The notes under the pieces were generated by a model. The model was not told the origin of the DNA. It searched no databases and saw only the letters and a program-made list of their open reading frames with translations. From contig JAHPZE010000007.1 of assembly GCA_019058365.1 (NCBI GenBank), positions 103,210 to 167,209 of the forward strand: a stretch of DNA of 64,000 nt, in the 5' to 3' direction. This DNA comes from Promethearchaeota archaeon. Lineage in GTDB: Archaea > Asgardarchaeota > Lokiarchaeia > Sigyniarchaeales > SOKP01. Position numbers and translations under genes: made by a program. Of this stretch, positions 39,460 to 62,164 are shown one piece after another; within the stretch, counting starts at the first letter, position 1; the number at the start of each line of letters is the position of its first letter.

Positions 39460-39484
39460 TAATATAACAAAAGGTATTCTTAAT

Positions 39485-40603: not shown

Positions 40604-40726
40604 ATTTTTGATTAGTTTTAAAGAAAAAGATGCCAAAACGCAAGCACCTCTAGAATCTTCAAACTATGATTCTAATCATATATTTTTATTAATATAGCAA
40701 CTTTTTTAATAATTGGACGAAAGAAA

Positions 40727-41881: not shown

Positions 41882-42130
41882 TAACTATTCAATATATAAA
41901 TTCTAACCTGATTTTTTGATCTAATTCTTAATAATATCCTTTTTTATCTCCTCCGGAAATGTTTTCATTTGTATTTTGGAAGCAAATATTCCTAGGATTA
42001 ATTTTAAAATATTACTATGTAAAAATCAGAAATTTTTAGTGCTATTATGTGTTATATTCTGATTTACTATCATTTAAAGCAATATGTATAATAGTCAAAA
42101 ATACTATTTTTTTCGATGTTCTAACTGCTT

Positions 42131-44356: not shown

Positions 44357-44481
44357 AGGAAAAAATGTAGAATTAATTAATTATAGAATAAGCATTATTT
44401 ACACAACTTGTGTATATGACATGATGTATATATGTTAAAAATCTTTTCTCTTACTTTCTTTTCTCATTCTATGTTTTTAGG

Positions 44482-44730
44482 TTACCGGATATGTCTAATT
44501 AAGAATCCTCTAATCTTTTCTATTAAAACTTCTCTGCATTTAGGATGCGACCATTCTTCAGCATTGAATAGATTTTCTTCGTCTGCTCTTATGTGAAGCT
44601 ATAAATGCATAAGAATAACACGTATACTCGTTTTTAACTCTCTAAAATTCTGAATTTTACTAATCTTATTGAAAGTCTGATTAATAAGCTCACTTCGAGC
44701 CTTTTTTACTCACTCACTCTTTTCATACAT
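44482..44730 (-). pseudogene. Pseudogene paralogue of 63514-63762
   Basis: MYEKSE*VKKARSELINQTFNKISKIQNFRELKTSIRVILMHL*LHIRADEENLFNAEEWSHPKCREVLIEKIRGFLIRHIR; same length, two in-frame stops. Confidence 0.92.
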
Positions 44731-44923
44731 TGCATTAAGACAATAGATTTTATGGCATATAAATCGGATGAGAGTTGTAAATTGTAGTTTGGTTCATTTT
44801 ACATTACTTGAGCTAATAATCTGATTTAGAGCATTATAATTATAGATATAATCCATTATATAACGCAGATTTGGGAAGATTAATATTATATAATGCTAAA
44901 TCATCGATTAATGTGAAAAATTA

Positions 44924-45160: not shown

Positions 45161-45323
45161 ATCCACTTTTTAATAAAATTTGATTTAGAAATTTATTAAT
45201 TTGATTTATACTGTCTATTTTTCCATTGAGATAATAATGTTTTTTATTTATAAGTTTTCTATATTATTATAATAGTGTCAAAAATTATAGACAAAAATAA
45301 TTCAATATTTATAGGAGAATTTT

Positions 45324-46559
45324 ATGGGAATCATTGGGAATGACGATGATAAAGATACTAATTCGTTTATAATTGGAAAATTGGTAGAATCAGAGGAGTT
45401 ATTAAATCTTGACATTTCATTTCCACATGTCATCCTTATCAGTGGAAAGAGAGGAACAGGCAAATCTTATTCATTAGGAGTAATAGCAGAGGGGTTGTTA
45501 GAAACCTCACAATTAGTACTTCTAACGGATACCATGAATATATATTGGACAATGTTTAAGAAAAATACTCAGAATGAATCTAAAAATCTGCCAAACTATG
45601 AGTTAATTTCAGAAGGACTTCCTATCAATCTAATAACTATCAAAAGTAATGATGACTTTTATGAAACAGTTCAAACCGAAACCAACCTTGTTCGAATCAC
45701 CAAATTAATTTTATTACCATCAGAGTTATCTCCATCTGAATGGTGTGATATGTTTGATCTGAGCATCAATTCGCCAATGGGTATGGCGTTATTTGATGCT
45801 GTATCAATAGTCTCAGAAAAAAGTTCGTTTAGTATTTCAGATATTGTTGCAAAACTAAATGAAACCGAAATTGCCATTGGAACATTAAAAGCTCTTGAAC
45901 GGAGGTTAAAGAGTGTTGAGCAATGGGGGCTTTTTGGAGAGAAAGGAGTAAAGCTAAATGAACTTATGGATAATAGGCATATTAATATTCTTGATTTAGG
46001 TATAATTCCAAGAGGATTTGGTGGTGGGATGAGGAATGTCCTTCTTACAATTTTAATAAGAAAGATCATGAATAATCGAGTTAGAATTCGCAAATATGAA
46101 GAATTAGCAGAAATAAGTGATAATGCCTACTTGTATAAATCAAAGATTAGAAAAGGACTTCTTCCTCTATGGTTATTAATTGACGAAGCACATCAATTTG
46201 TACCTCGTAAAGGCACGACTGTCTCCAAACCAGCTTTAATTACTTGGGCTAAAGAAGGGAGACAGCCAGGATTAGGACTAGTAATGGCGACTCAACGCCC
46301 GGGAGCATTAGATTCAGAGATATTAAGTCAATGTGATATTATTATAAGTCATAGGATTACTCTTAATCAAGATTTAAAAGCTTTAAATGATCTTTCTCAA
46401 AATTATATGACTCAAGAACTTCGTTATGCGATTGGTGAAATAAAAGGAAGAGGGAAAGCGATTATTATGGATGATATTACAGAAAAACTAATAAAGGCTG
46501 AAATCCGTCCTCGGAAAACTTGGCATGGTGGAGGAGAAAGAAAGATAAAGAAATATTGA
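45324..46559 (+). CDS. HerA/FtsK-superfamily ATPase (DUF87-type)
   Basis: Walker A GKRGTGKS, Walker B LLIDEAH, arginine finger 'KEGRQPG', 'ATQRP', 'LSQC'. Confidence 0.93.
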   Translation: MGIIGNDDDKDTNSFIIGKLVESEELLNLDISFPHVILISGKRGTGKSYSLGVIAEGLLETSQLVLLTDTMNIYWTMFKKNTQNESKNLPNYELISEGLPINLITIKSNDDFYETVQTETNLVRITKLILLPSELSPSEWCDMFDLSINSPMGMALFDAVSIVSEKSSFSISDIVAKLNETEIAIGTLKALERRLKSVEQWGLFGEKGVKLNELMDNRHINILDLGIIPRGFGGGMRNVLLTILIRKIMNNRVRIRKYEELAEISDNAYLYKSKIRKGLLPLWLLIDEAHQFVPRKGTTVSKPALITWAKEGRQPGLGLVMATQRPGALDSEILSQCDIIISHRITLNQDLKALNDLSQNYMTQELRYAIGEIKGRGKAIIMDDITEKLIKAEIRPRKTWHGGGERKIKKY

Positions 46560-46571
46560 GAGCGTAAACGT

Positions 46572-47396
46572 ATGAGAGACTATCTTAATTATAAATACAA
46601 AATAATATATTCAGAACAATTTAGACTTCCTAGTATAAAATTTTTATTGAAATTATTTTCAAATAAAAAATCTCTATCTAAAAATGATTTAACTTCAAAG
46701 TGCATTCCATCTTCATATTTTAATAGCAAATTAACTTTAGAAAAATCAATAAGAATGATGAATTACTATGGATTAATTAATAAGAATAAGGAAAATTATC
46801 AACTTACGGAATTTGGTATAGTTGCTAAATATTCAACTCAATACAAAACTGAAAATGAATTCTTAGAAATACTAAATTACAGTTCATATGTAAATAATCT
46901 TACATACCATCTAATAATTGATCTTTTATTTAATATTTCAGAAAAGGAAATATCTGGAAGCATTGATTTCTTCTCTCAAATGTCTAGTGAGGAACAATAT
47001 ACTTACATCCAGAATAAAATTGAAGAATCTGTACAAAAAAATCTGCATAAGCGATATATCAGACATTTTACACACCCTATTAGGAAAATGGGTATTGTAG
47101 ATAAGTTTGGATTTATGCCAAGATTAAGAAATAATTTGTGGAAGGGTATTTTTTTAATCTCATTTAGTGATGTGTTAAAAGAAAATAAAAAGTCAAATAA
47201 TGAAATTTTACTTACAGATACTCTAATCAAGGATATTATAGCGCCCTTATTTTTAACTAAAGATGCGTTTTACTCATTCCTTAATAGAGAAACTTTACAT
47301 CCATATTTTAAATTGAACATAACAAAAGGGAAGGAATATTATATTCAAATTAATAAAATAGTAACACCCTTAACTATAGTGGAGGAGAATCTATGA
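46572..47396 (+). CDS. Tandem winged-helix DNA-binding protein (BrxA-like by position)
   Basis: 'SIRMMNYYGLI...YQLTEFG' and 'PIRKMGIV' wHTH-like ends; in the operon. Confidence 0.5.
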   Translation: MRDYLNYKYKIIYSEQFRLPSIKFLLKLFSNKKSLSKNDLTSKCIPSSYFNSKLTLEKSIRMMNYYGLINKNKENYQLTEFGIVAKYSTQYKTENEFLEILNYSSYVNNLTYHLIIDLLFNISEKEISGSIDFFSQMSSEEQYTYIQNKIEESVQKNLHKRYIRHFTHPIRKMGIVDKFGFMPRLRNNLWKGIFLISFSDVLKENKKSNNEILLTDTLIKDIIAPLFLTKDAFYSFLNRETLHPYFKLNITKGKEYYIQINKIVTPLTIVEENL

Positions 47397-47929
47397 ATTT
47401 AAAGAACTATATTTGGAATCATTCAGATGAATTCTATCTTATGCAAAATCAAGAAGACATTTTTAATAAAATTAAAGACTTCAAATTGAATGGTCCTATA
47501 CATATAGGAGGGGAAGAAGGGAATGGTAAGACTTTTTTAGCTAGAAAATTGCTAAATAATGAGTCGATTTATTTACCCATTCATTATAATTTCGATAGAT
47601 ATCTACTCAAGAATTATTCATTAATAATAGTAGATAACATTATTAATTTTCATTCAGAAATAATTTCAAAATTAAAAAGATGCATACAACATTGTAGATT
47701 GTTATTAATAATTAGTGAAAATTATTCAAAATCTTTAAATAATGATATCAATGCTATAATTAGACGTAATATAGACTTATATCCTCCTGATCTTGAAGAG
47801 ATAAATAATTTAGCACATTATTTATTTGAAATTTTCAAGATACCCTATAAAAATCTGCCTAAAAATGTTAATAATTTACAAAAATTAATAGACTTTTTCG
47901 ATCAGATAATAATAGAAAAAAATGAGTGA
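47393..47929 (+). CDS. Small P-loop NTPase (BrxB-like by size and position)
   Basis: Walker A GEEGNGKT, Walker B 'LIIVDN'; 4-nt overlaps on both sides. Confidence 0.65.
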   Translation: MNLKNYIWNHSDEFYLMQNQEDIFNKIKDFKLNGPIHIGGEEGNGKTFLARKLLNNESIYLPIHYNFDRYLLKNYSLIIVDNIINFHSEIISKLKRCIQHCRLLLIISENYSKSLNNDINAIIRRNIDLYPPDLEEINNLAHYLFEIFKIPYKNLPKNVNNLQKLIDFFDQIIIEKNE

Positions 47930-50900
47930 TGATTGATATGGATTTACGAGATGCTATAAAAAATTTGGGAGTTCTCGATATATTAAATGAAACTGCTACC
48001 CCAATTCGATTAAATCAATATTTTAATGAAAAATTTGAATTAATTAAAACTGGAAAGCACTTAATTAAAATAATGGAAACCTTAGCTCTTTATTGTGTAC
48101 CTAGTTGTGATCATGATAAAGCTCTTAAGAATATTATTAATAAAACTAAAGATGGAAAAGGACACATTGGTGTGGTTGAGGGGGATTTTGGCTCTGGGAA
48201 AACTGCATTTATGGCTTATATATGGGATAGATTAGAAAATGAAGGATATATGTCTTTACCTCCTCTGGGTCATGCAGATCCAAAACAGATCGTTGAAGCT
48301 ACTGGGAAATGGATAAAAAGCAAACTGGAAAGCAAACATTATAATGAAATTGATCAAATTTTAGAAAGAATAAATGATGTCAATCTTGAAAAAATAGCTA
48401 GTGCGATTGAAGATACAGAAGAGCTAAGAACTTTAGGGGTAATTGCTGGAGAAATTTTAAATGAACTTGCAAAATTCTGTAAGAAAGTAGGTTTTAGTGG
48501 ATTAATTATCCTTTTAGATGAATTGGAATATATTACTTCCGTTAGCAGAGGTAGTGAATCGAGTGAAAATATTAGACGTAATTTGGAATTATATAGAGAA
48601 TTCGTAAGGACAATTAATACTCAACAAAACATTTCTCCTTTAGTTTTTATGATTAGTGTTATCAGCTCTGATTGGGATCAAATTGAAAGCTTAAGGCATT
48701 TTTCAGGGCTAACTCAATCATTCCGTAGCAAATATAATGTTAATTCCCAAAGAGATAAGGATAATCCAGAGAAAAATCTAAGTTCTTTTCAAATCTGGAG
48801 TCATTGGAAAAATAAAATAGCTGAAAATGAAAATATTGGTGTTAAAGCAATACCTGATCCTTTTCATCCTATTATATTTAAAATTATTGATACAATATGC
48901 TTTGATCGTCCTGGAGAGGGTCAACAACCAAGAATGAGAGGTGTAATAAGAATATTGCAAGAACTATTAAAACAATATGTTGATAATAAAGAAATTCAAA
49001 CAATTATGCCAAATAGCATTTCAATTTTATTAAAAGAAGTTAATATTGGAAGTATAAAACAAGAGGGGATATTAGAAATTGAGGAGGATATACTTAAAAT
49101 CCCTTTTAAAGAGAGAAAGTATGCAAATATTGCACTTGAGATAGCGCAGATCTGCATTCCACTCTTTTGGAATGGTATTAATATAGATGAATTAGAAGAG
49201 ATTTTTGAAAATAAAGATGATTTTCAAATTGCTTTGAAAGAATTAAAAAAGCTTGGTTTTATCACTTATGAAGGTAAGGATAAAATCAGAATTGACCGAG
49301 AATATATGGAAAAGACTGTAAATAGACTTACACAAGATTTATCAATTAGACAAATTCTTAAAGAGATTAAAATAAAAGGCTTTCATGAATATGCTTATCC
49401 AGTTTTAGGTATGGAAGAGAGCATTAAAGCTTTAATAAGAAATCTAGAACTTAATATTGAAGAATTAGATTCAGAAGAAAATTATGTCAGATATAAAATA
49501 ACAGGTGAAATTGAGGAACCTACTATTAACCTATATTGGATAGAAAGGTGTTTTGAAGTTGTTGTAAGCGAAGAGCGTGATTTTGAAAAAGTTCTAAATA
49601 AAATATATCAAAATAACTCCTCAGATTTAAAAATTATCTTTCTATTGAGAGATTTTGATGAATCTGAAACGTTTATTGATGACAAGAATAATACGTTAGT
49701 AATTAAGATTGGTCCAGAAGTTGAGTGCAAATTAGAAGATGTTCAAGTCTCTCTTAAAGAAGCAGCAGCAATTTTCTACTATATGCATGAAAATAAAATA
49801 ATAAAAGGTCAAGAAACAATACAGAGTACTATTGTCCGTAGTATTTTTCAATCTATTGATATTGATGTATTTCAAATTGATGAGAAGGTTACTAGTTTTC
49901 ATGATTTAATTATCAATCTCTATAGGTTATTCTATCCTGAATATCAACCAGTAATGACAAAAAGTAGAACGCCTTCCAGTGCCATATCTAAGTTTATTGA
50001 ATTTATAAAGCAATTAGATTTAGAATATCGTGATTTCGGAGCGAGGGTACCTAAAACTAAATTTGATGAAGTTCTTTTTAACGTGGTCCCTCGAAAAAGT
50101 CAACATACTACATTAGAAAACAAGTTTCAGCAATATAACCTAATTCGGAAAGAGACTGAAAGCTCTGGTATATTCATGGTTATGAATGGTTTAATGGCTG
50201 AGAAGTTAATTGAGCAAAAAATTAGTGAAGACTCATTTATTTTAGATGATATTAAAGCATATCTAAGAGATTTGGGTTATCGAAATATAGAGATAGATTT
50301 AGCAATAGAGATTCTTGTGAAATATCGGGAAATGTATGAGATTAAGAAAGAAAGAATTGATATTTCTGGAAAAAAAGTTCTAAACGACGTATTAAAGAAA
50401 CGTAAATTTGAATTAGATTTCCTTCATAATTTTATAAGAAATATTGATACTTTGATAACTTCAATTTTTAAGGATGATAAGGATCTTTTCAATAAAGATC
50501 TAATTGAAAATTACAATAATTACAAACATAATTTTCAAAGTCTTGAGGAAACGTCTAACCTAATTAAAGACAAAACAATAAAAATAGAACAACAACAAGG
50601 TATCTTTCTTAATAAATTTAGAGATTTCGGCCAAATTTCTCAGAATCTTATTGGTCAGCTTGGCAAGTTCATAAAAAACATAAAAGATGAGACAGGTTTA
50701 TTCTATAATATAAAAAATATAGAAAAGATCTCTGTAGTCCCTCCAAAAGCACCTTATCCGGATTTTGCAGGCATTTTGAATAATATTTATAAAGAACTCC
50801 AAAATAATGTTCAGAAAATCTCTCAGAATAAAACTATTTTAATATCTTTTGAAAAAATATCTCAATTATTTCGAACTCTTGAGTCCTTTTTAGATAAATT

Positions 50901-52155
50901 GAATAACACAAGAGGGCTTCCCGAAGAAGGCATAGAAAATGATCTTAATAATATTATTAAGAAATATGCTGAAAGACCTACTACTATCAATGCAAATGTC
51001 TTATCTATTATTGGAAAAGATATAAATGATGTAATAAATGAATCTAGTAAAATTCAAAATGCCAGAAATGTAATTAATACCTTTATCACAGACTATTATT
51101 CATTTTGTGAAATTCTAAATGGTAAGGATTTAAAATCTTCATACTATGATCTTCAATACTCAAGCCAAATAATCGAAAGCAAACTAAAAATTAATGAAAA
51201 AGTAAAAAAAGAAATGGAGTCTCTTGAAACAATATTAATTAAGGCGAAAAGTAGATTAAATTCATCTTTAACCGCATTAAATGAATGTGTTACCGAGTTA
51301 AAAACAGATCCAGGTTTAGTTATACAATTCAGAACGGAAAGTGGAAAAGCAAGGGATCTTATTGAACTTCTAGAGCTGGTACAATTAAATAACCGTCTTC
51401 ATGATTTTAAGGATAAGTTTGAGAAGAAATATAATGAAACGAAAATAAGATTTTTAGATTTGATATCTCTTTCGAATCGATATGGTGTTAATGTTACTGA
51501 CACTCCAGTTCTGATAGATTCAGATAAATTTGAATCTGAATTTCCAAAATTAGATATATTAAATGACAAATATATTTCAATTATATTAAGATCTAAATCG
51601 CTAGAAACCCAACTCTTCAAATTATCACAGGAATTAATTGAATTACTTTTAAGTCATCTTTCTATTAGTATTAAGGAAGTTGATTCTAATTATGAAATTT
51701 TTAAAAAAATTATAGACATATCATCTTTACGAGGTGAAGATCAGGAAAGTATTCAAAAAAGTATTACTTCAATTGAGGAAATCGAGAAGGAAAGAATTCA
51801 ATTATTGAATAGTTTGTCTAATATTGAAGAGCCTAATAAAAAGATCAATTCCCTATATGTAAGGATTAAAAAGCAACAAGAATTTATAAAAGAACTCTGG
51901 CAAATCTACCAAAGTCGTTTAGAGAAGAAGAATGAATTGTTAAATGTAAAAAATGATTTAATGAAAATTCAAAGTGAAAATAAAGGTCCCTTTTCATTAT
52001 ATCAATATATTTTAAATTTTAAAAATCTTGAAAGAATGAGTAGAGACGAGATTCATGAATTATTATTAAATTCAGCAGAAAATATCTTTCAATTAGCCTT
52101 AGAAGGACATTTAAAATTAAAATTTGAAGTAATTAAATCAGAAGATGAAGAATAA
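47926..52155 (+). CDS. Large BrxC/PglY-like AAA+ ATPase with wHTH and long coiled-coil C-terminus
   Basis: Walker A GDFGSGKT, Walker B IILLDELE, 'PFHP', 'RMRGVIR', wHTH 'LKELKKLGFI'; directly precedes pglZ. Confidence 0.75.
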   Translation: MMIDMDLRDAIKNLGVLDILNETATPIRLNQYFNEKFELIKTGKHLIKIMETLALYCVPSCDHDKALKNIINKTKDGKGHIGVVEGDFGSGKTAFMAYIWDRLENEGYMSLPPLGHADPKQIVEATGKWIKSKLESKHYNEIDQILERINDVNLEKIASAIEDTEELRTLGVIAGEILNELAKFCKKVGFSGLIILLDELEYITSVSRGSESSENIRRNLELYREFVRTINTQQNISPLVFMISVISSDWDQIESLRHFSGLTQSFRSKYNVNSQRDKDNPEKNLSSFQIWSHWKNKIAENENIGVKAIPDPFHPIIFKIIDTICFDRPGEGQQPRMRGVIRILQELLKQYVDNKEIQTIMPNSISILLKEVNIGSIKQEGILEIEEDILKIPFKERKYANIALEIAQICIPLFWNGINIDELEEIFENKDDFQIALKELKKLGFITYEGKDKIRIDREYMEKTVNRLTQDLSIRQILKEIKIKGFHEYAYPVLGMEESIKALIRNLELNIEELDSEENYVRYKITGEIEEPTINLYWIERCFEVVVSEERDFEKVLNKIYQNNSSDLKIIFLLRDFDESETFIDDKNNTLVIKIGPEVECKLEDVQVSLKEAAAIFYYMHENKIIKGQETIQSTIVRSIFQSIDIDVFQIDEKVTSFHDLIINLYRLFYPEYQPVMTKSRTPSSAISKFIEFIKQLDLEYRDFGARVPKTKFDEVLFNVVPRKSQHTTLENKFQQYNLIRKETESSGIFMVMNGLMAEKLIEQKISEDSFILDDIKAYLRDLGYRNIEIDLAIEILVKYREMYEIKKERIDISGKKVLNDVLKKRKFELDFLHNFIRNIDTLITSIFKDDKDLFNKDLIENYNNYKHNFQSLEETSNLIKDKTIKIEQQQGIFLNKFRDFGQISQNLIGQLGKFIKNIKDETGLFYNIKNIEKISVVPPKAPYPDFAGILNNIYKELQNNVQKISQNKTILISFEKISQLFRTLESFLDKLNNTRGLPEEGIENDLNNIIKKYAERPTTINANVLSIIGKDINDVINESSKIQNARNVINTFITDYYSFCEILNGKDLKSSYYDLQYSSQIIESKLKINEKVKKEMESLETILIKAKSRLNSSLTALNECVTELKTDPGLVIQFRTESGKARDLIELLELVQLNNRLHDFKDKFEKKYNETKIRFLDLISLSNRYGVNVTDTPVLIDSDKFESEFPKLDILNDKYISIILRSKSLETQLFKLSQELIELLLSHLSISIKEVDSNYEIFKKIIDISSLRGEDQESIQKSITSIEEIEKERIQLLNSLSNIEEPNKKINSLYVRIKKQQEFIKELWQIYQSRLEKKNELLNVKNDLMKIQSENKGPFSLYQYILNFKNLERMSRDEIHELLLNSAENIFQLALEGHLKLKFEVIKSEDEE

Positions 52156-52167
52156 GGATGTGATTAG

Positions 52168-55100
52168 TTGGAAAATATTGAATTAGATTTAACTAAACAC
52201 AATATAATAACCACCAAAAATAATTTAGAAAGTTTAATTGAATGCTATCGCCAACATGACAACTTTATCTTAATATCTTCAGATACTTCTTCTTATTATG
52301 TTTACTCAATTATCAAAGAATATCTAGATCAAGGGCTTTCAGTTAATTGTATTGTTGAAATTGATGTTTTTAGATCACTGAAAATCTTCCAACGGTTTGA
52401 TCTTTCAGTTGTACAAGAATCATTAATTAAAATTCCTTTTAATAAACGGAATTTTACTTTAGCTCAGCAAATTCTGGAAAAAAGTTTTGAACTTTTTTTA
52501 GAGCAAAATTATAACTATAAAGTCCCCTATATACCATTCCAATTATCTCCTAGTGCTCTCAGAATAGCAAAAAAAATTATTGAAAATAATTATATTAATC
52601 AGAATTTTTTCAATAAATTCTCTAAAAAACTTATAATAAAATTAAAAGAATATAAGATAAGTTATATTCCCGAATTTTTAGGTTCTTATATAGGAAAAAC
52701 TGAGGATAGAAAAAAAGATAAAAAGAAAGAGTTAACAATCAACTTTTCAACAATATACAACGAATTGTTAAAGTTACAAAAATCCAAAGAAGATGACCTT
52801 GAGGACGTTATAAATAGACTTGAACAAGATTATATTGTTGATTTAAAGAATTTTTATTTAGAGTGGGATCTTGATAATGATGAAGAACGCCCATTTTTAA
52901 TAAGTGATACAATCAAAATCTTATTTGGTTTCCTATTTAATAAAGATGATGAATATCATCCTCTAATTAAAGGAATTCTACCCAAACATCTATCAAATAA
53001 CGTTGTTTTAATTATATTTGATAACTTAGGTTATTTTGATTTAATTCGTGGTATTAAACAAAGCAAATTATGGTCAACATTAAATTCGGAGAATGAAATT
53101 CTAATTTGTCCTGCTTTTTCAAGTTTCATAACCTCAACAGGTTCCGCGCTTTCATATTTAATTCGTGAAGATAAAGAGAATAAATCATTAATAGATAAGA
53201 TAGTCGATCAGATGATTGAAGAAGATGATCCTATTTCTGTAATAACAAGTTCTCAATGGAATCAGAACCACCCTTTTAATAAAAAATTATTTGATTCAAA
53301 AAGAAGTGGATATCTTAGGATATCAGAAACTGTTTTTACTTTAAATACATTAAAACCTTATCTCAAAGAACTTGAAAATAATCATTATTTGGTGGTACAT
53401 TCTTGTATGGGGATTCCACACGAGAATGTCTCATTTGAAAAATTATACGAGGAAGTTGAACAGAATGTCATAAAAAGGATTTCTGAAGCGATTGATTTGT
53501 TTCCAGATTCTGTAATCATAGCAATCGGAGATCATGGCGTTCAATGGACACACCAAAAGATTGGAGGTGGAGAAAAATTAGACAATAATAAACGAATTTC
53601 AAATATCCCTATTAAAGATTATTCAATGGGGGAAGTCAATATAGATAAACACAAAATTCTTCAGTTATTACAATTGGAATCCCAAAATTTCTTTCCTCTA
53701 AAACCTTCCTATGTAATAGAATTACCGAATACAAAAATGTGTCATGGAGGTTTTTCTTTTTCCGAACTTGTCATTCCTTTAATAATATGTAAACCTATAA
53801 AAAAAAAGATTGATCTAGAATTAGAAGAAGATCAAGTGGCACTTGGTGTTCCTTCTTTAGAAGAATCTAAAGTTAAAAAGGAAGATTTTATCCCAATACA
53901 AAAGGTTAGGGATATAATTCTCCACTATTTAGAGACAAATGGTCCATCGCAGGTTTCGGAAATAACAGAGTATGTAAGTAATGCTAAAAACAAGGATTTC
54001 TCAGAAGGTGATATAAATGGGTTATTACGTAGTTTATTGAGATATGGTAATGTTGTGAAAGGAAATCCTTCTGAAGGATCAGGTAAAAGAGCCAAAGCAA
54101 TAATATGGCATTTACCTAAACATGAAGAAAAATATAGAAAGATGGTAGATGAAGCAGAAGAGAAAATTTTAAAATTTATTAGAGAAAAAAAGGCGTGCTT
54201 ATTTAAACCAATATATGAAGAACTGCCTCTTAAAAGAGGGATTACCCTTTCAATATTACAACGGCTAAATTTTCAGAAAAAGATAGAAATTAAAGAATTT
54301 GAACGAATTTTCTATATTCATAATAATTTAATTTATAGCAAAGCAAAGATTTACTACATACCTGGTAATGAGGAGTATGCAATAAAAAGAATTTCTGAAG
54401 TTCAATCTGGTTCAAGTGCCCAAAGGAGTGAGAAAGCCTTATTAAGTCGATTCGATAATCTAATTGAACAATTAAATAAGGAACTTGAGTTTGAAGTGCC
54501 TGAAATTATCAAATCTGAAGCAATAAAGATAGCATTCCGAAAAATTAAAAAAAGTGGGAGGACAGGGATAAAGCATGTCGATCTTTTAGGTGCGGTTCTT
54601 TCTTTATCATTTAGGAAATTTCATATCCCGATTTCATTTGATTCTATTAGTAAAGCAGCAGTTCACACCAGTCTACTTCTAAAAAGTAAAGATCCAAAAG
54701 AAATTAATAATATATATAAACTATATTCTATAAGGAAAAAGAATATCCGGAAATTAAGTACAGAAATTCGAAGATTATTAGCTTTAAAGATAAAACCACT
54801 AAGTTTTAAAGATTATTTTAAATTCATTATTATGCGTCTAGATTGCCCTTACTACATTTATCACTTTGGAAACCAGATTTTAAAGGAATCAAATAGTTTT
54901 GTTTTACCTGGAATTGATCCCGGTGGGTTTGCAGGAGCAATAATTTACTATATTATTCGAAAAATAAAACCACTTGGTATATGTTATAAGACTTACAATC
55001 AAAAAACTATAGCAAGAATTATTAATGTGACAGAAGTTACATTAAGAAAGGCATTTAAAATTCTTGAATTAAAGATTCATCCATACTTTTCTAGTGAAAT

Positions 55101-56595
55101 TAATGAAATCGAAAGATTTATTGAAGATTCTGTTGATTTCAAAGAATTGAGAATTATTACTCAAGAAGGAAATGTTAGTCTTTCTGAACATCAAAACAGC
55201 ATTGAAGTTATAATAAGAAGCTTGATTAAGAACACTTTAGATTATGAATTAACTTACTGTGAGGAACATTATAGTAATGGAAATATAAATCATAAATCTG
55301 TTGTATTTTTCTTAGAGAACGAAATAATTGAAGGATTGCTAAATGAAAATTACAATATCATATTAAGTTCTCAAGAATTTATTAAGTATCTCATACCAGG
55401 ACAATCGAGAGTATTTGTTTGCAAAAATACAGTAGATAGAAACTTACAATTCTCATTTACTCCGAAGGTAGTTTTAATAAATATTCCACTATCTTATGCT
55501 AAAAATCTTATTCAGTTTGCAGGTATAGAATTAGCCGAGTTCTATATACAATGCAAGGATTCAGAGTTTATCCATGCCATGATTTTAGATAATGATAGTA
55601 TTGAAGAACATTCAATCGCTCTTTTTGATCTATTAGAAAAATTAGAATTGAAAGAATATCAAAAAAGTCTCTTGATACCAGAAATTGAAGGTCAATTTTT
55701 AAATGAATACATTATTGAATTTGAAGAAACCCTTGATGATGATAGTACCAGTGAAAAAGAAGTAAAAACTATTAAAAAAACAGAACTCTTTCGAGAATGG
55801 TTGGAAGAGGAGATCGATGTTAATAAAGATACTAAGAAAAATGACCAAATTTCAACTCAAGATATAGTAAAACCTAAACTAAAAGATCTTATAGACGATT
55901 TTAAATTATTTATTGATAATATTGATTATTCTGAAATTCTAAAAACACCAAAGAATTGCTACTTTATCATTAATCAAAGTTTAGAAGCTTATAACACTAA
56001 TCTTTACCAACCCGCTTTTGAAACAATGTTAACATCATTAGAACGATTGCTCTACAACTATCATTTTATATTCTTAAAGACTACAGAACGTTTAGACATT
56101 CATAAATATTTAAAGGATTTATGGAAAGAACGACTAATTTCAAAAGATCTTCGCGATCAAATAAATATTATAGCACGTTGTAGAAATGAAGTTAAACATG
56201 GGAGAAGAGATGTTGATCTTAATTATTTTAATACGTATTTTCTGTTAATTCTCGATTCGATTAAGAGATTAAGCTATGAATATTTTCAAATTCCAGCAAT
56301 TCATAAGGTAATAGAGCAGTTAAATAATCTAGAATTTGTTAAAGAACACAACCTTATTCCAATAAAACATGATCCTCAGATCCTTAAAAAATGGCTATTT
56401 AATAAGATTGAACAAATGTTTATATATGAAAGAGATGAGACCATAAACAATATTAATACCTTTAACATTATCATAGAATTTTTCATAGCTTCATTAAAGG
56501 ATAAAAAACAGAAACAATTCTACTTCAGTCTTGAATGTGAAATGAAAAGAGAAGGTAAAAATTATCTTATAATAAAAATGGAAGAAATGGATTGA
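52168..56595 (+). CDS. pglZ: PglZ-domain phosphatase fused to two wHTH domains, TFB/TFIIB cyclin repeats and a HEPN domain
   Basis: PglZ 'IIFDNLGY', 'GDHG', 'HGGFSFSELVIP'; TFB 'GIDPGGFAGAIIY...QKTIARIINVTEVTLRK'; HEPN 'RNEVKH'. Confidence 0.85.
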   Translation: MENIELDLTKHNIITTKNNLESLIECYRQHDNFILISSDTSSYYVYSIIKEYLDQGLSVNCIVEIDVFRSLKIFQRFDLSVVQESLIKIPFNKRNFTLAQQILEKSFELFLEQNYNYKVPYIPFQLSPSALRIAKKIIENNYINQNFFNKFSKKLIIKLKEYKISYIPEFLGSYIGKTEDRKKDKKKELTINFSTIYNELLKLQKSKEDDLEDVINRLEQDYIVDLKNFYLEWDLDNDEERPFLISDTIKILFGFLFNKDDEYHPLIKGILPKHLSNNVVLIIFDNLGYFDLIRGIKQSKLWSTLNSENEILICPAFSSFITSTGSALSYLIREDKENKSLIDKIVDQMIEEDDPISVITSSQWNQNHPFNKKLFDSKRSGYLRISETVFTLNTLKPYLKELENNHYLVVHSCMGIPHENVSFEKLYEEVEQNVIKRISEAIDLFPDSVIIAIGDHGVQWTHQKIGGGEKLDNNKRISNIPIKDYSMGEVNIDKHKILQLLQLESQNFFPLKPSYVIELPNTKMCHGGFSFSELVIPLIICKPIKKKIDLELEEDQVALGVPSLEESKVKKEDFIPIQKVRDIILHYLETNGPSQVSEITEYVSNAKNKDFSEGDINGLLRSLLRYGNVVKGNPSEGSGKRAKAIIWHLPKHEEKYRKMVDEAEEKILKFIREKKACLFKPIYEELPLKRGITLSILQRLNFQKKIEIKEFERIFYIHNNLIYSKAKIYYIPGNEEYAIKRISEVQSGSSAQRSEKALLSRFDNLIEQLNKELEFEVPEIIKSEAIKIAFRKIKKSGRTGIKHVDLLGAVLSLSFRKFHIPISFDSISKAAVHTSLLLKSKDPKEINNIYKLYSIRKKNIRKLSTEIRRLLALKIKPLSFKDYFKFIIMRLDCPYYIYHFGNQILKESNSFVLPGIDPGGFAGAIIYYIIRKIKPLGICYKTYNQKTIARIINVTEVTLRKAFKILELKIHPYFSSEINEIERFIEDSVDFKELRIITQEGNVSLSEHQNSIEVIIRSLIKNTLDYELTYCEEHYSNGNINHKSVVFFLENEIIEGLLNENYNIILSSQEFIKYLIPGQSRVFVCKNTVDRNLQFSFTPKVVLINIPLSYAKNLIQFAGIELAEFYIQCKDSEFIHAMILDNDSIEEHSIALFDLLEKLELKEYQKSLLIPEIEGQFLNEYIIEFEETLDDDSTSEKEVKTIKKTELFREWLEEEIDVNKDTKKNDQISTQDIVKPKLKDLIDDFKLFIDNIDYSEILKTPKNCYFIINQSLEAYNTNLYQPAFETMLTSLERLLYNYHFIFLKTTERLDIHKYLKDLWKERLISKDLRDQINIIARCRNEVKHGRRDVDLNYFNTYFLLILDSIKRLSYEYFQIPAIHKVIEQLNNLEFVKEHNLIPIKHDPQILKKWLFNKIEQMFIYERDETINNINTFNIIIEFFIASLKDKKQKQFYFSLECEMKREGKNYLIIKMEEMD

Positions 56596-57086
56596 AATAA
56601 TGATTTTAAAGATGTTATATTGCTTCTATTGGAAAAAAAATTACAAAATTAGAAATCATGCATGATTTCTCTTACAATTCTGATTTTTATTAGAAAGAAA
56701 GAATTTGAGGGATTACATCCAATTTTTCAAGAAATTTTGAATAAATTTTAACTTTTGAATTCTAAAGTCACCCAAATCTTAAATTTAATTTATAAGGCTG
56801 AATCTTTATGTATTTTACAAAATATGATTATTATTACCTATGGCAGAAATCAATTAATGAAAACTTTCCATCAAAGATAGATATACAAAATCTTAAAAAA
56901 AGTATTAAAAAGGAATTAAATAACAAATTACATGATGAATCTAGGGAAATTTAAAATTTAATTTTCCTTAACGTCTATAGGGATAACAATGATGATTTAA
57001 AAGAAATTATTAATAAAAATGTTAATAAAATCAATGGATTATGATATTAATATGAGTATCGATACTAATCGCCCCTTAGGGACAAA
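56596..57086 (+). pseudogene. Probable decayed coding sequence (lost N-terminus of the TPR gene or a separate gene)
   Basis: Coding-like fragments in shifting frames (e.g. 'YYYLWQKSINENFPSKIDIQNLKKSIKKELNNKLHDESREI*') leading into the TPR ORF, which has only a TTG start. Confidence 0.4.
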
Positions 57087-60000
57087 TTGTTCATTTTAGA
57101 ACGATATATACTTAAAAAGCGAATTGAAATAATGAAGATGTTAGAGGATAAAGATGAAAAAGATTTAATCTTCCTCTGTATTTCCTTACTTTTACAAAAT
57201 TTGTTCCTTAAAAAGTTAAGACTAGATCCGGGATATCGATTGAAAGTTTTATTGGAACTAGACAAAGATTTAAAAGTATTAAGACAAGCAAAAAGAGATT
57301 TAATTCTTTTATTTGAAGATTCTTCCCTTATTAAGGAATTTTCAGAGACAGTTAAAAAATCTAAAAGGGAGGATTTTAAGTTTGAGGAAAGACGCCTATT
57401 TATGAATGTAATAAATGAAAGGCAATATTTTAAAGTCTTCACTTCCGTATTTTTAAAAGAGAACGAGAAGATTCTCTGGTTTTATCTCTTATGGGGAGAG
57501 TTTATGGAAAATGGAAAAATCTCAGAAGCTATAGCCACTGAAGCTATGTTATTAGAGCTAATAGGGGGATATTTTCAATGTTACTTTCTTTTTTGGAAAG
57601 AATCACCATATGAAACGCCAAGAAATGCACACTATTATCTACTAAATGGAATAAGAGAAATTGTCAAAATGATCAATCCTTTCTTCTTAGATTATATAGA
57701 ATCTCAGAGGGCAAACATCCAGTTGACAGAGGAAATACAAGATATTATTGATAGCTTAAACTTTAACAAATTAATAAAACAATTAGATGAAATTTCAAAC
57801 CATTTAAAGGATATTTATGATTGCGAAATCGATAAGTTCAATAATAAACAATTATACAAATCAATTTTAACAATCTGCGCTCTAACATACTTCAATAATC
57901 TCCCTTTGGAGCAAAAAGTTTTGCAATTAAATAAAATTCAAGGTGTATCAAAATTTATAGAATTGGTGCGGTTGTACCCTACAGTTTACCCAGATAGAAT
58001 GTTTTCTATTGATCTTCCCACATGGTACAGAAATGGGCTTCTTCCTAGCTTTAAATCCCTAATTGAAGAAAAAATTAAGTCTCTTGATCATATAAGATCA
58101 ATTTCTTATCTAAAAAAAAATGAAGAAGAGCTGACTCATTTTATTTTAGCAAAATATTTATATAAAATTTTAATCTTGGAAAAAAAATATTCTTTAGCCT
58201 TCAAACTACTTAGTGAACGTTTTGAATTTATAGAAAACCTAGTGAATACGAAATTCAAAAACTATGATATGTGTAATGGAGAAGATCATTTTCAAGTGGA
58301 GATGTTATTCCTACTTGGTCAGATTGCTGCAGTTTCTAAGAAAGAAGCTGTCTTAAATCATATTATTAAAATTTTTAATAAGATGGGATTATCAGAAACG
58401 AATCCCTTAACTACGTATAAATTTCTAGCATTGAAGAGTATTTTATACCGTATAACTGGGGATTACAAAAAAGAATCTTTTCTCTTTCAGAGTATAAGAG
58501 TTGAGATTACTAAATTATTAAAAGAAAAAAAATTAAACCCAATAGAAATTATGGAATATCTTCTTCCTGCCCAATTGTTATTTTCTGAGAATTTTAATCC
58601 TAAGGTTATTAAACAACAGTCCATTATTCAACAATCAATTCTAACTTTTGAGAGGGAGTCTTTAATTCCTTATAATATTGAACCTTATATCATATATTTA
58701 GATTTAAGAAAAGAATTACTACGTAAAGCTCCTAATATTGGTGCTTTAGAGATAAGAGATAAAAGTTTCGAGTTATTAAATCTCAATTATATGAGTCTTC
58801 AATCACAAAGTTTGGGGAGTTTTAGAGAAGCACTTTTTTATGTTCCTGATATTATCACTTTAATTAATATTTATGAAAAAACCGATGAAAAAAGAATTCT
58901 GATGGAAACTATCGCATTTCCATATTTATATTTAGGTGATTATAAAAATTCGAAAGCTTATTTAGAAAAAGCATTAGAATTTAATCCGACTGATGCATAT
59001 TATAATGAATATTTGATATTAGTTAATTTGGCCTTGGAAGATTTTTCAGAAGCTTATAAGCATTTATTCAAACAATATCAGATGGATAAATTTCGCAGAA
59101 CTACTACAACAGCTACGTATATTGAATCATCCTATCGTCTATTACTATTTTGGTTTCAAGAATCTAAATTTGATGATGTAATTAACTCACTATTAGATAA
59201 TCTTCCTGAATTTGACAAATTGCTCCTTTATATTGATAAAATATATTGTGATATTGGAACTACATTTGCTAATTTAGGATTTTTTGAAAAAGCATTGTAT
59301 TATTATTTGAAATCATATAAAATAACTACAGACAGTGAGTTAAAAGCTTCATTACTAAATAATATTGGGACTCTACATAGTGATCAAAATAATATTGGAA
59401 AAGCTATAGAGACTTTTGAGAATGCTTTAGGATTAAACCAGGACAACAAAATGTTTTGGTTCAACCTTGCAAAAATGTATGAACTAAAACATAATTATAT
59501 TAAAGCAAAAGATATCTATGAAAACGCCAGTAAACACTTTGAAAGTAAGGATAAAGAAATTGCAGAATATATGAAATTGCAAAGTAGTCTAGCGGAATTG
59601 GATTCAAAAGGAATCCTTAGTTTAAATTTGGTAAAAGATGAGGATGCGCTAGAACATTTTAAGATTGCCCGTGAATTATTCTTAAATCGAAATACTATAA
59701 AATTTCTTTCAGATAATACAGGGAGTATTATCCATCATCTTACTAATGGATTTGATTGTCTATTTCATTCTAATATTTCTCTTTTATTAAATAAAATTTT
59801 AAGGAAAACATACCCGAATAATAATCGGCTCCCACCTAATATTTGGAAGGCTTTACCTCGAGGAGTTAGGGAAATCTGGAGAGGAAAGCACATGTCGCTT
59901 GGAAATATTTTATACTTAATCAACGATATGTTAGCAGTTAATCCTAATAATTTAGTAAAAACTTTTAGGGATGAAATATATCAGGTTTTAAGTTCTGAGG

Positions 60001-60159
60001 ATTTGAAAATTATTAAGAAAATGGCCGAAATTTGTTCAGATATACGAAATCCCGCAAGTCAATGGAGGAATTATAAATAACCAGACTTTATTGAATGCTT
60101 TACCTGAAATAATTGGAAATTTGAACAAATGTATACTTATCTTTAATAAATTCACTTAA
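57087..60159 (+). pseudogene. TPR-repeat protein with C-terminal HEPN domain, +1 frameshift at 60061-60062
   Basis: TPRs 'YLEKALEFNP', 'LLNNIGTLH...FENALGLN'; removing one A restores RNPASHGGIINNQTLLNALPEIIGNLNKCILIFNKFT* ending at 60159. Confidence 0.8.
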
Positions 60160-62060: not shown

Positions 62061-62096
62061 ATAATTTAAGCATTTATATAATTAACTATTACTTAA

Positions 62097-62164
62097 TTAC
62101 CGTATATATCTAATTAAAAATTCCTCAATCTTTTCTCTTTTATAGCTTCGCTCTTTTTATACAT
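62097..62164 (-). pseudogene. Internally deleted remnant of the 63514-63762 gene family
   Basis: 5' 'MYKKSEAIK' joined out of frame to 3' 'EKIEEFLIRYIR*'; flank AGACAATAGATT shared with the 44.7-kb copy. Confidence 0.85.

What the first reader, a model, noticed from the sequence alone, without database searches (positions are those of the whole stretch)
45324..56595. Methyltransferase-less, HerA-led BREX-related five-gene operon
Seen: herA - wHTH - small ATPase - 1409-aa ATPase - pglZ fusion, tightly packed (12-nt gaps or 4-nt overlaps). No PglX methyltransferase, PAPS reductase, BrxL protease or helicase lies in or beside the operon. Known: BrxC-type ATPase plus PglZ is the shared core of BREX/Pgl systems, which normally carry a self-marking enzyme. 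Inference: an atypical archaeal BREX-related system in which a HerA translocase and a HEPN effector replace modification-based self/non-self discrimination. BREX relatives with HerA may already be described and should be compared.
Basis: partly seen in the sequence, partly recalled or inferred. Interest (0 to 1): 0.88.

Follow-up and report, generated by a model that had tools for sequence, protein, structure and literature searches.

The report
Marking-less BREX-related HerA defence cassette
This five-gene operon is a very divergent relative of the recently predicted, never tested "BREX-Related Capture" (BRC) anti-virus system; it has no DNA-marking enzyme, and its PglZ nuclease-like protein carries a copy of the archaeal transcription factor TFB core and a probable HEPN RNase.

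Summary
The five co-directional genes at 45324-56595 are real. All five are homologous, gene for gene, to the core of BRC (BREX-Related Capture) systems described by comparative genomics in 2026 (PMC12839542): HerA, a BrxA-position protein, a small active P-loop NTPase, a BrxC-type ATPase and PglZ. Pfam and PADLOC miss most of this. Profile-profile comparison with 24 BRC loci gives 92-100% probability for matched pairs, against under 10% for most mismatched pairs.

The PglZ call holds only at profile level, with all catalytic motifs aligned.

No methyltransferase, PAPS reductase, BrxL or helicase lies nearby. The TGT and GNAT genes that accompany nearly all BRC loci sampled here are also missing. 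Five family loci share the same five genes, and the conserved block ends 85 nt before herA and 15 nt after the last stop. So this is a self-contained, marking-less cassette, not a deletion derivative of this copy.

Its HerA is sister to all sampled BRC HerAs. The last protein adds about 900 residues: wHTH-like segments, a TFB core with both cyclin repeats, and a probable HEPN domain.

Verdict: a new variant of a known but untested kind. The scan has met BRC systems before on other DNA, always with a marking module.

The parts
45239..45323 (+). Conserved upstream leader or promoter region of the cassette
   Evidence: blastn similarity between L122 and the window begins at 45239, 85 nt before the herA start. 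Sequence further upstream is unrelated. The upstream 120 nt of the window and L122 look alike.
45324..46559 (+). Gene 1: short HerA/FtsK-type P-loop ATPase (411 aa), the predicted DNA translocase
   Evidence: Pfam DUF87 at 36 bits. PADLOC mad8 at 5.6e-19 over the full length, plus HerA models. Walker A reads GKRGTGKS and Walker B reads LLIDEAH. hhalign against BRC HerAs gives 100%, E 6e-83. Family copies are 77-90% identical.
46572..47396 (+). Gene 2: 274-aa protein in the BrxA/DUF4007 position of BRC loci (presumed DNA binder)
   Evidence: No hit in any library. hhalign against 22 BRC second-gene proteins gives 92.0%, E 6.6e-7, over 247 columns. An hmmsearch with the BRC-only HMM gives 1.4e-6 for the window copy and 2e-7 for L013. 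Mismatched controls score 0.5% or less.
47393..47929 (+). Gene 3: 178-aa small P-loop NTPase, counterpart of the BRC STAND-type NTPase (BrxB position)
   Evidence: hhalign against BRC gives 98.7%, E 1.9e-16. The HMM search gives 5e-16. Walker A GxxGxGKT and the Walker B aspartate are invariant across 26 sequences.
47926..52155 (+). Gene 4: 1409-aa BrxC-type (ORC/Cdc6-like AAA+) ATPase with a long helical C-terminal part
   Evidence: Pfam BrxC_BrxD at 38.5 bits against a cut-off of 22.2. Walker A reads GDFGSGKT and Walker B reads ILLDELE. hhalign against 23 BRC large ATPases gives 99.7%, E 7.7e-27, with 1176 collinear columns. Against the genome's own canonical BrxC it gives only 33.9%.
52168..56595 (+). 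Gene 5: 1475-aa multidomain PglZ fusion protein
   Evidence: Only four relatives were found among 5.8 billion proteins and 1.84 billion cluster representatives. All are 1465-1472 aa long with the same architecture.
52858..53847 (+). PglZ (alkaline-phosphatase-fold) domain of gene 5, residues about 231-560
   Evidence: hhalign against the phylum's PglZ ORFs gives 95.6-96.5%. Against BRC short PglZ it gives 96.6%, E 5e-10, and the HMM search gives 3e-11 to 2e-14. D285, T324, H418, D455, H456 and H526 are invariant in 26 sequences. 27 of 30 ESM Atlas neighbours are PglZ clusters.
53890..54402 (+). Two wHTH-like segments of gene 5, residues about 575-745
   Evidence: Sequence pattern only. No library hit. 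Not tested by fold.
54430..55092 (+). TFB/TFIIB core (both cyclin repeats) embedded in gene 5, residues about 755-975
   Evidence: NCBIfam PRK00423 (TFIIB) at 9.4e-10. tblastn matches host TFB genes in 47 of 61 genomes searched, G000 included. hhalign against 7 host TFBs gives 97.8%, E 8e-13. The TEVTLR helix motif is kept. There is no confident match to the Zn ribbon or B-reader.
55105..55842 (+). Middle region of unknown fold, residues about 980-1225. It is the fastest-evolving part of gene 5.
   Evidence: No hits. Mean pairwise identity is 0.43.
55930..56292 (+). Probable HEPN domain, residues about 1255-1375, with the RN[ED]VKH motif at 56182-56199
   Evidence: The motif is invariant in 5 sequences. 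AF2 gives a helical bundle at pLDDT 64. HepT HEPN toxins recur in Foldseek at E 0.13-0.4. Pfam gives sub-threshold HEPN_Apea at 0.082 and DUF4145 at 0.12. The ESM Atlas gives a DUF4145 cluster at 0.89. This is the best-conserved part of gene 5, at 0.63 identity.
56320..56592 (+). C-terminal beta-sheet domain of unknown function, residues about 1385-1475
   Evidence: The AF2 model shows four long strands. Only weak matches to NTF2- or cystatin-like folds.

Best explanation
The operon is a self-contained, horizontally moving defence cassette of the BREX-Related Capture (BRC) kind, from a deep sister lineage of the described BRC systems.

Shown: all five genes are homologous to the five-part BRC core. 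These are a HerA DNA pump, a BrxA-position protein, a small active P-loop NTPase (BrxB position), a BrxC-type AAA+ ATPase, and a PglZ phosphodiesterase-fold protein with intact catalytic residues. Also shown: the cassette has no DNA-marking gene. The PglZ protein carries extra wHTH-like segments, a TFB core and a probable HEPN RNase domain.

Inferred, by analogy with BREX and with the published BRC model: the two ATPases, the gene-2 protein and the PglZ protein form a sensing and restriction complex. HerA threads foreign DNA towards it. PglZ acts as the DNA-directed effector. The HEPN domain serves as a second, RNA-directed or suicidal effector.

Because no marking enzyme is present, discrimination most likely rests on what is sensed rather than on an epigenetic mark. 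Candidates are free or replicating foreign DNA captured by HerA, or a signal read by the fast-evolving wHTH, TFB-core and middle modules.
For: - Gene-for-gene homology to BRC-only profiles, with our family excluded from them: hhalign gives 100 / 92.0 / 98.7 / 99.7 / 96.6% for genes 1-5. Most mismatched pairs score under 10%; the exceptions are 82% for the P-loop cross-hit herA vs gene 3, 29% for gene 5 vs a TGT set later found to be contaminated with PglZ, and 12.7% for gene 4 vs gene 3. HMM E-values run from 1e-6 to 1e-25.
- The nearest HerA relatives outside the family (about 40% identity) sit in loci with TGT, GNAT, PglZ and two ATPases, as the BRC paper describes (PMC12839542 section 36).
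- On the HerA tree our clade is sister to all 24 BRC HerAs (99/97 support). Both stand apart from DPANN-type HerAs.
- The PglZ catalytic set and the ATPase Walker motifs are invariant.
- Five family loci carry the same five genes in unrelated flanks. The conserved block is 45239-56610.
- The cassette is rare. No copy was found in 60 relatives with gene 5. HerA had no match at E<=1e-30 in the 134 other genomes of its family, and nothing closer than 38% identity in the 399 other genomes of the phylum.
- The motor is conserved (77%) while the binder and effector proteins evolve fast (37-48%), as in conflict systems.
- The neighbourhood is defence-like: a TPR protein with a PADLOC TPR hit lies downstream in the window, and a PemK toxin gene lies nearby in L120.
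Against: - No experiment exists for any BRC system, so the defence role and the capture mechanism are predictions.
- Our family alignments are shallow (3-5 sequences, Neff 1.4-1.9), and the hhalign E-values are for single comparisons.
- Gene 2 is linked to BRC only at 92% and 1e-6. It has no detectable similarity to BrxA or to Pfam DUF4007.
- Pfam PglZ and DUF6079 models do not hit.
- The HEPN fold is not confirmed. Foldseek gives no hit at E<=0.001, and VIA-align gives only generic bundles.
- A cassette without a marking enzyme and with an active nuclease needs some other safeguard, which was not identified.
- The same genome carries a complete type-1 BREX with PglX on another contig, so marking in trans cannot be excluded for this genome.
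Confidence: 0.72

Rival explanations
1. It is a BRC or BREX-type restriction module that still depends on an epigenetic mark, but the mark is written in trans. The writer could be the genome's own type-1 BREX PglX on another contig, or an unlinked modification gene. In that case the cassette is only the restriction half of a mark-and-restrict system.
For: Nearly all sampled BRC loci carry a TGT-like gene, and many carry a GNAT. Earlier scan reports found the BRC core paired with other marking modules. G000 carries a complete BrxA-B-C-PglX-PglZ-BrxL locus on contig C30.
Against: Five family loci show no linked marking gene, and the conserved block ends right at the operon. A cassette that moves alone between unrelated flanks would be toxic or useless without its marker. 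Its proteins are far from the canonical BREX proteins of the same genome (gene 4 vs BrxC 33.9%; gene 5 vs PglZ 12.1%). No DpdA or BRC-type TGT was found elsewhere in G000, though this negative is weak.
Confidence: 0.12
2. It is not a defence system but a module of a mobile element. HerA would package or partition DNA, the ORC-like ATPases would serve replication, and the TFB-core fusion would redirect host transcription to the element.
For: HerA/FtsK ATPases and ORC/Cdc6-like ATPases also serve DNA packaging and replication (general knowledge). The TFB core keeps its DNA-reading helix motif. The region is bracketed by two copies of an 82-aa gene within a 271-nt repeat.
Against: No integrase, capsid or replication gene travels with the cassette. 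In L013 it lies directly beside ribosomal protein L37ae and prefoldin genes. All five parts match a family whose other members carry PglZ, TGT and GNAT. The PglZ catalytic residues and the R-x4-H motif are conserved. The repeat and the 82-aa gene are absent from the other family loci.
Confidence: 0.08
3. It is a decaying remnant that is no longer functional.
For: In one metagenomic copy (L001) gene 2 is split into 205-aa and 57-aa pieces. The cassette is rare.
Against: The window copy and the L013 copy have five intact long ORFs, including two of more than 1400 aa in 28% GC DNA. In L120 and L122 every gene not cut by the contig end is intact. Catalytic and Walker motifs are invariant, and HerA is 77-90% identical across copies.
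Confidence: 0.05

Closest known systems
BRC (BREX-Related Capture) systems, Rakesh & Krishnan, Nucleic Acids Res 2026 (PMC12839542); a computational prediction, untested
   Same: The same five-part core: HerA/FtsK ATPase, BrxA-position protein, small active P-loop (STAND-type) NTPase, BrxC-type ATPase and PglZ. Protein sizes are alike (about 390 / 270 / 170 / 1300 aa). The inner gene order (gene 2, 3, 4, PglZ) is the same. No PglX methyltransferase. Present in archaea.
   Different: There is no TGT-like or GNAT gene, whereas a clean TGT-like gene was found in 17 of 24 sampled loci and a GNAT in 16 of the 24 (L035, L036 and L038 included). HerA is the first gene rather than the last. PglZ is 1475 aa rather than about 316-420 aa (819 aa in L035), with added wHTH-like, TFB-core, unknown, HEPN-like and beta domains. 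The sequences are so far apart that Pfam and PADLOC see almost nothing. HerA is a long-branch sister of all sampled BRC HerAs.
Type-1 BREX (BrxA-BrxB-BrxC-PglX-PglZ-BrxL); a complete copy lies in the same genome at G000:C30 (locus L015)
   Same: The order and sizes of the parts run in parallel: 259/179/1204 aa then PglZ, against 274/178/1409 aa then the PglZ fusion. Both have a BrxC_BrxD-type P-loop and the same PglZ catalytic motifs.
   Different: No PglX and no BrxL, and HerA is added. Similarity to the genome's own BREX proteins is marginal: gene 4 vs BrxC 33.9%, gene 5 vs PglZ 12.1%, and genes 2 and 3 vs BrxA and BrxB 0.3% or less.
HerA/FtsK 'capture' systems and DndFGH (Rakesh, Aravind & Krishnan, NAR 2024, PMC10853773)
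   Same: A HerA/FtsK pump is combined with ORC/Cdc6-like ATPases, fast-evolving DNA binders and a nuclease effector. These systems are proposed to act without strict coupling to a modification module.
   Different: The effector here is PglZ (plus a probable HEPN), not a DndH-type or PLD-type nuclease. This paper was located but not read in detail here.
Type-1 BR / Hma systems with a HEPN-fused DUF499 ATPase (PMC12839542; PMC3710099)
   Same: A BREX-related machine carries a HEPN endoRNase fused to a core component as a presumed back-up or suicide effector.
   Different: There the HEPN sits on the ATPase N-terminus, and the system includes a methyltransferase and a helicase-nuclease. Here it sits near the C-terminus of PglZ, and there is neither a methyltransferase nor a helicase.

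Membership tests
BRC (BREX-Related Capture) system | HerA/FtsK translocase, universally present | tested here: met
   Pfam DUF87 is over its cut-off. hhalign against BRC HerAs gives 100%. The family is the sister clade of BRC HerAs with 99/97 support.
BRC (BREX-Related Capture) system | BrxC-type ORC/Cdc6 AAA+ ATPase ('DUF6079') | tested here: met
   hhalign against 23 BRC large ATPases gives 99.7%, E 7.7e-27, over 1176 columns, and the HMM search gives about 1e-24. Pfam BrxC_BrxD is over its cut-off. No Pfam hit to a DUF6079 model appeared in scans at E<=0.01 for the window copy and E<=1 for two family copies.
BRC (BREX-Related Capture) system | Active STAND-type small NTPase (BrxB counterpart) | tested here: met
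   hhalign 98.7%, E 1.9e-16. Walker A and Walker B are invariant.
BRC (BREX-Related Capture) system | Tripartite DNA-binding protein (DUF4007 / BrxA counterpart) | tested here: inconclusive
   Gene 2 matches the BRC gene in the same position (92.0%, E 6.6e-7; HMM 1e-6 to 2e-7). Neither gene 2 nor the two BRC counterparts scanned (L035, L036) hit Pfam DUF4007. hhalign against BrxA gives 0.1%. The wHTH fold was not tested.
BRC (BREX-Related Capture) system | PglZ effector | tested here: met
   Profile-level only. hhalign gives 96.6% against BRC PglZ and 96.5% against the phylum's PglZ ORFs. The catalytic residues are invariant. The Pfam PF08665 model itself does not hit.
BRC (BREX-Related Capture) system | GNAT and TGT modification genes (present in a subset according to the paper; TGT in most loci sampled here) | tested here: not met
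   No hit in six-frame searches of the window and six family loci with BRC GNAT and clean TGT HMMs. No Pfam hit in the flanks.
Canonical BREX (types 1-6) | BrxC/PglY-type ATPase plus PglZ | tested here: met
Canonical BREX (types 1-6) | Self-marking enzyme in the locus (PglX/BrxX methyltransferase, or PAPS reductase in type 4) | tested here: not met
   None was found between 33.9 and 63.8 kb or in the other family loci. The genome's real PglX, on contig C30, scores 590 bits with PADLOC as a positive control.
HEPN superfamily | R-x(4-6)-H motif in a four-helix bundle | tested here: inconclusive
   The motif RN[ED]VKH is invariant. A helical bundle is predicted at pLDDT 64. There are only weak, recurring HepT matches (E 0.13-0.4) and sub-threshold Pfam hits to HEPN_Apea and DUF4145. 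VIA-align gives generic bundles.
TFB/TFIIB | Two cyclin-fold repeats of the core domain | tested here: met
   NCBIfam PRK00423 at 9.4e-10. hhalign against host TFBs gives 97.8%, E 8e-13, over residues about 755-970.
TFB/TFIIB | N-terminal Zn ribbon and B-reader/linker, needed for RNA polymerase recruitment | tested here: not met
   There is no confident alignment to TFB positions 1-100. The segment is embedded in a 1475-aa protein, so it is not a basal factor.
MADS (mad1-mad8) | Eight-gene operon with methyltransferase, kinase and nuclease modules | tested here: not met
   Only the mad8 ATPase model matches HerA at 5.6e-19, apart from a marginal mad8 cross-hit on gene 3 (0.0038). No other mad model hits.

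The most novel reading that the evidence does not exclude
A modification-independent BREX-type immune machine. The PglZ protein would use its embedded copy of the host's TFB core, with the neighbouring wHTH and fast-evolving middle modules, as a sensor or integrated decoy. It would detect viral promoters, TBP-DNA complexes or viral factors that target the host's basal transcription machinery. It would then fire the PglZ DNase and a HEPN RNase, while HerA reels in the foreign DNA.
Probability: 0.2. Interest if true: 0.85.

Novelty: new variant of a known kind. Interest (0 to 1): 0.6.

Why it matters
BREX and its relatives are thought to need an epigenetic mark to spare the host's own DNA. This lineage keeps the whole BREX-like and HerA machine but travels without any marking enzyme. 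It gains sensor-like and RNase-like domains on PglZ instead.

If it defends, it would show that the PglZ/BrxC/HerA core can work by sensing rather than marking. It would also be a compact five-gene object for testing what PglZ and HerA actually do. A basal transcription factor core built into an immune effector would be, as far as the literature searched shows, an undescribed fusion. It comes from archaea reported to be Asgard, where such a link between transcription and immunity is of special interest.

The locus also shows that current HMM libraries (Pfam, PADLOC, NCBIfam) miss whole lineages of BREX-related systems.

Tried and rejected
- AF2 of gene-5 residues 1-575 with 5 sequences gave pLDDT 46.9. 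It is unusable and was not searched.
- Foldseek and VIA-align on the C-terminal model gave no significant match, only generic helical bundles.
- Complex prediction on the PglZ domain plus gene 3, with 26-row alignments, gave no verdict (score 0.00). This is not evidence either way.
- The exhaustive HMMER search with the PglZ-domain profile found only 2 family clusters among 1.84 billion representatives and no bridge to PglZ.
- Sequence searches of the PDB for genes 4 and 5 found nothing.
- The first related-loci scan, with the three-sequence HerA alignment, found nothing. A second call errored. The repeat with a 30-sequence alignment worked.
- My first TGT seed set was contaminated by a short PglZ (L035:3080-4291). 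This produced a spurious 29% hit between gene 5 and TGT. I rebuilt a clean set of 17 sequences.
- hhalign of genes 2 and 3 against the genome's BrxA and BrxB showed no signal.
- The sigma-70 promoter and terminator scan is uninformative for an archaeon.
- The Rfam scan of the window gave 0 hits.
- Searches of G000 for DpdA (Pfam) and for a BRC TGT protein found nothing, but the controls did not ring either, so these negatives are weak.
- The TPR gene and the 82-aa repeat gene were considered as parts of the system. I rejected this because they are absent from the other family loci.

Full report
OBSERVATION

The window is AT-rich, about 28% GC. It holds five co-directional ORFs at 45324-46559 (411 aa), 46572-47396 (274 aa), 47393-47929 (178 aa), 47926-52155 (1409 aa) and 52168-56595 (1475 aa).

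Library scans see little.
- Gene 1 is a short HerA-type ATPase: Pfam DUF87 at 36 bits, PADLOC mad8 at 5.6e-19 over its full length, and HerA models on its C-terminal half.
- Gene 4 passes the Pfam BrxC_BrxD cut-off (38.5 bits). So do its two homologues that were tested (29.6 and 35.2 bits).
- Gene 3 has only weak P-loop hits, but clear Walker A and B motifs.
- Gene 2 hits nothing.
- Gene 5 hits no PglZ model in Pfam, PADLOC or NCBIfam. A search of the whole genome with Pfam PF08665 at E<=10 finds only a different gene on another contig. The only library hit of gene 5 is to TFIIB (NCBIfam PRK00423, 9.4e-10, residues 823-967).

IS GENE 5 A PglZ PROTEIN?

Four independent lines say yes, at profile level.
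1. BLASTP against the genome's own canonical PglZ puts the HGG-S--E--P motif in register as the best local match. The E-value of 0.018 is marginal.
2. For residues 230-560, 27 of the 30 nearest ESM Atlas clusters are PglZ clusters. Scores are 0.90-0.93 with 181-191 shared features.
3. hhalign of the family alignment against 20 Pfam-positive PglZ ORFs collected from the same phylum gives 95.6-96.5% probability (E 1e-8 to 7e-10). The four catalytic motifs are aligned.
4. In a joint alignment with 21 BRC short PglZ proteins, D285, T324, H418, D455, H456 and H526 are invariant.

An AF2 model of the N-terminal half was too poor to use (pLDDT 46.9).

HOW ISOLATED IS THE FAMILY?

Gene 5 has only three relatives among 5.8 billion proteins and one more among 1.84 billion cluster representatives. 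All are 1465-1472 aa long and collinear. Gene 4 likewise has only family hits.

Contigs carrying these relatives show the same five genes in the same order and with the same sizes:
- L001, where gene 2 is broken.
- L013, intact, directly beside L37ae, prefoldin and DHH genes.
- L120, with 9.6 kb of small upstream genes, including a PemK toxin gene.
- L122 with L003, from one sample.

Nucleotide similarity between the window and L122/L003 (73.5% and 77.7%) runs only from 45239 to 56610. That is 85 nt before herA to 15 nt after the last stop, and the flanks are unrelated. The unit is therefore exactly these five genes.

It is rare. Gene 5 found no copy in 60 related genomes, 36 of them from the same genus. 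The only matches there were the genomes' own TFB genes. HerA had no match at E<=1e-30 in the 134 other genomes of its family, and none closer than 38% identity in the 399 other genomes of the phylum. One cluster member is a GenBank protein from the LCGC14 marine sediment metagenome. Notes from this scan call the genome Asgard. I confirmed only that it is archaeal (TFB genes, and L37ae on a family contig) and that its relatives come from marine sediment.

WHAT IS IT RELATED TO?

A literature search for PglZ plus HerA led to Rakesh & Krishnan (NAR 2026, PMC12839542). They define BRC (BREX-Related Capture) systems with these parts:
- a HerA/FtsK ATPase;
- a DUF4007 (BrxA-like) DNA binder;
- an active STAND NTPase (BrxB homologue);
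- a DUF6079 (BrxC-type) ATPase;
- PglZ;
- GNAT and TGT genes in a subset.

The paper reports them in 45 taxa, including three archaeal classes.

I tested this link directly. HerA has more than 2400 relatives of 387-402 aa at about 40% identity. Their contigs show BRC-type loci. In L036 the 318-aa gene hits Pfam TGT and DpdA, and in L035 the PglZ passes the Pfam cut-off.

A scan of species-representative genomes with a 30-sequence HerA alignment returned 80 loci. Twenty-one of them have the order TGT-like, gene 2, gene 3, gene 4, short PglZ, HerA, often with a GNAT at either end. With the three metagenomic contigs above, that makes the 24 BRC loci used below. They come from Chloroflexota, Methanosarcina, Methanotrichaceae, Methanocaldococcus, Halorientalis, Poribacteria, Gemmatimonadota and others. 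HerAs of 436-450 aa from DPANN archaea and Methanosarcinales lack these partners.

Profiles were then built only from the BRC loci, with our family excluded, and compared with our family:

| Gene | hhalign probability | hhalign E-value | Note | hmmsearch E-value |
|---|---|---|---|---|
| 2 | 92.0% | 6.6e-7 | 247 columns | about 1e-6 |
| 3 | 98.7% | 1.9e-16 | | about 1e-16 |
| 4 | 99.7% | 7.7e-27 | 1176 collinear columns | about 1e-25 |
| 5 | 96.6% | 5e-10 | residues 163-543 | 1e-11 to 1e-14 |

HerA gave 100% in the earlier comparison. Most mismatched pairs served as controls and stayed below 10%. The exceptions were:
- a P-loop cross-hit, herA against gene 3, at 82%;
- gene 4 against gene 3, at 12.7%;
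- gene 5 against my first TGT set, at 29%. This set turned out to contain short PglZ sequences, and I rebuilt it.

By contrast, similarity to the complete canonical type-1 BREX in the same genome (contig C30) is marginal or absent. A maximum-likelihood HerA tree places our five HerAs as one long-branch clade. It is sister to all 24 BRC HerAs (99/97 support), and both are separate from the DPANN-type HerAs (100/100 support). The long-branch warning applies.

WHAT IS DIFFERENT?

1. There is no marking module. A clean TGT-like gene is present in 17 of the sampled BRC loci and a GNAT in 16. Six-frame searches of the whole 64-kb window and of all family loci with these HMMs find neither. Pfam finds no methyltransferase, PAPS reductase, Lon/BrxL or helicase in the neighbours.
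2. HerA comes first rather than last.
3. The PglZ protein is three to four times longer. After the PglZ domain it has the following parts:
   - Two wHTH-like segments, called from sequence pattern only.
   - A TFB core with both cyclin repeats. hhalign against seven host TFBs gives 97.8%, E 8e-13. Identity to host TFB is 31%. The TEVTLR helix motif is kept. There is no Zn ribbon or B-reader.
   - An unassigned middle region.
   - A probable HEPN domain, then a beta-sheet domain.

The HEPN call rests on several weak lines:
- an RN[ED]VKH motif invariant in all five sequences;
- a predicted helical bundle at pLDDT 64;
- weak but recurring Foldseek matches to HepT HEPN toxins;
- sub-threshold Pfam hits to HEPN_Apea and DUF4145, both of which are HEPN families (PMC3710099);
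- an ESM Atlas neighbour with DUF4145.

I rate the HEPN assignment at about 70%.

Within the family, HerA is 77% identical between the window and L013, against 37-48% for the other four proteins. Within gene 5, the HEPN-like and PglZ parts are the best conserved, and the TFB core, the middle region and the N-terminus are the most variable. This is the usual pattern of a conserved motor and effector with fast-evolving recognition modules.

MECHANISM

Shown:
- the parts list;
- intact ATPase motifs in genes 1, 3 and 4;
- an intact PglZ catalytic set;
- a conserved R-x4-H motif;
- a mobile five-gene unit;
- the absence of a linked marking enzyme.

Inferred from BREX work and from the BRC proposal (PMC12839542):
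- genes 2-5 assemble into a sensing and restriction complex;
- HerA translocates foreign DNA to it;
- PglZ is the DNA-directed effector;
- HEPN acts as a back-up RNase.

How self DNA is spared is open. The most economical reading is activation by sensing, not by mark. The sensor could be HerA capturing entering or replicating DNA. It could also be a signal read by the wHTH, TFB-core and middle modules. Marking in trans, for example by the genome's own BREX PglX, is the main rival. It fits poorly with a cassette that moves alone.

COMPARISON AND NOVELTY

This is not a canonical BREX, because the defining marking enzyme was tested and is absent. It shares the complete five-part core of BRC and is best filed as a deep-branching, marking-less variant of that kind.

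The BRC paper does not mention TFIIB or cyclin domains. It describes HEPN fused to DUF499 ATPases, not to PglZ. A search for TFIIB plus HEPN found no description of such a fusion.

Earlier reports of this scan found BRC cores on other DNA paired with TGT/GNAT, SspBCD or radical-SAM modules. This is the first one here without any such partner. No BRC system has been tested experimentally, so every functional statement remains a prediction.

Noticed in passing
G000 contig C30, locus L015:29-19336 (outside the window): The same genome carries a complete canonical type-1 BREX (BrxA, BrxB, BrxC, PglX, PglZ, BrxL). A mad3/LmuB-like SMC ATPase gene lies before it and a Dsr1-like gene after it. All are recognised strongly by PADLOC, so they serve as an internal positive control.
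   Followed up: partly
window 44475-44745 and 63507-63777 (plus a 63-nt partial copy at 62072-62134): A 271-nt direct repeat (75% identity) carries an 82-aa minus-strand gene (65% protein identity between the copies). It brackets the operon, the TPR gene and three further ORFs. Neither the repeat nor the gene lies beside the other family loci.
   Followed up: partly
window 57087-60080: A 997-aa TPR protein (PADLOC TPR model, 3e-12) lies directly downstream. It is not conserved next to the cassette elsewhere.
   Followed up: no
L001:1543-2522: In this metagenomic copy of the cassette, gene 2 is split into a 205-aa piece and a 57-aa piece, while the other four genes are intact.
   Followed up: no
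L035:3-14679: This contig seems to hold two BRC-like sets in tandem. The first runs partial large ATPase, short PglZ, GNAT, HerA. After a QueF gene on the opposite strand comes a second set: gene-2-like, gene-3-like, large ATPase and an 819-aa PglZ with no HerA of its own.
   Followed up: no
L055-L119 (many): A separate clade of 436-450-aa HerA-like ATPases in DPANN archaea and Methanosarcinales (about 35% identity) has no BRC partners. Some sit next to other P-loop proteins of 310-760 aa. Their system is not identified.
   Followed up: no
window 39335-44356: Three upstream ORFs of 422, 384 and 741 aa have no hit in Pfam, PADLOC or NCBIfam. The 741-aa protein has a hydrophobic, multi-helix N-terminus.
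   Followed up: no
window 35665-36912 (-) and 62368-63423 (-): A trypsin-like protease with a C-terminal zinc ribbon and a calcineurin-like phosphoesterase flank the wider island.
   Followed up: no
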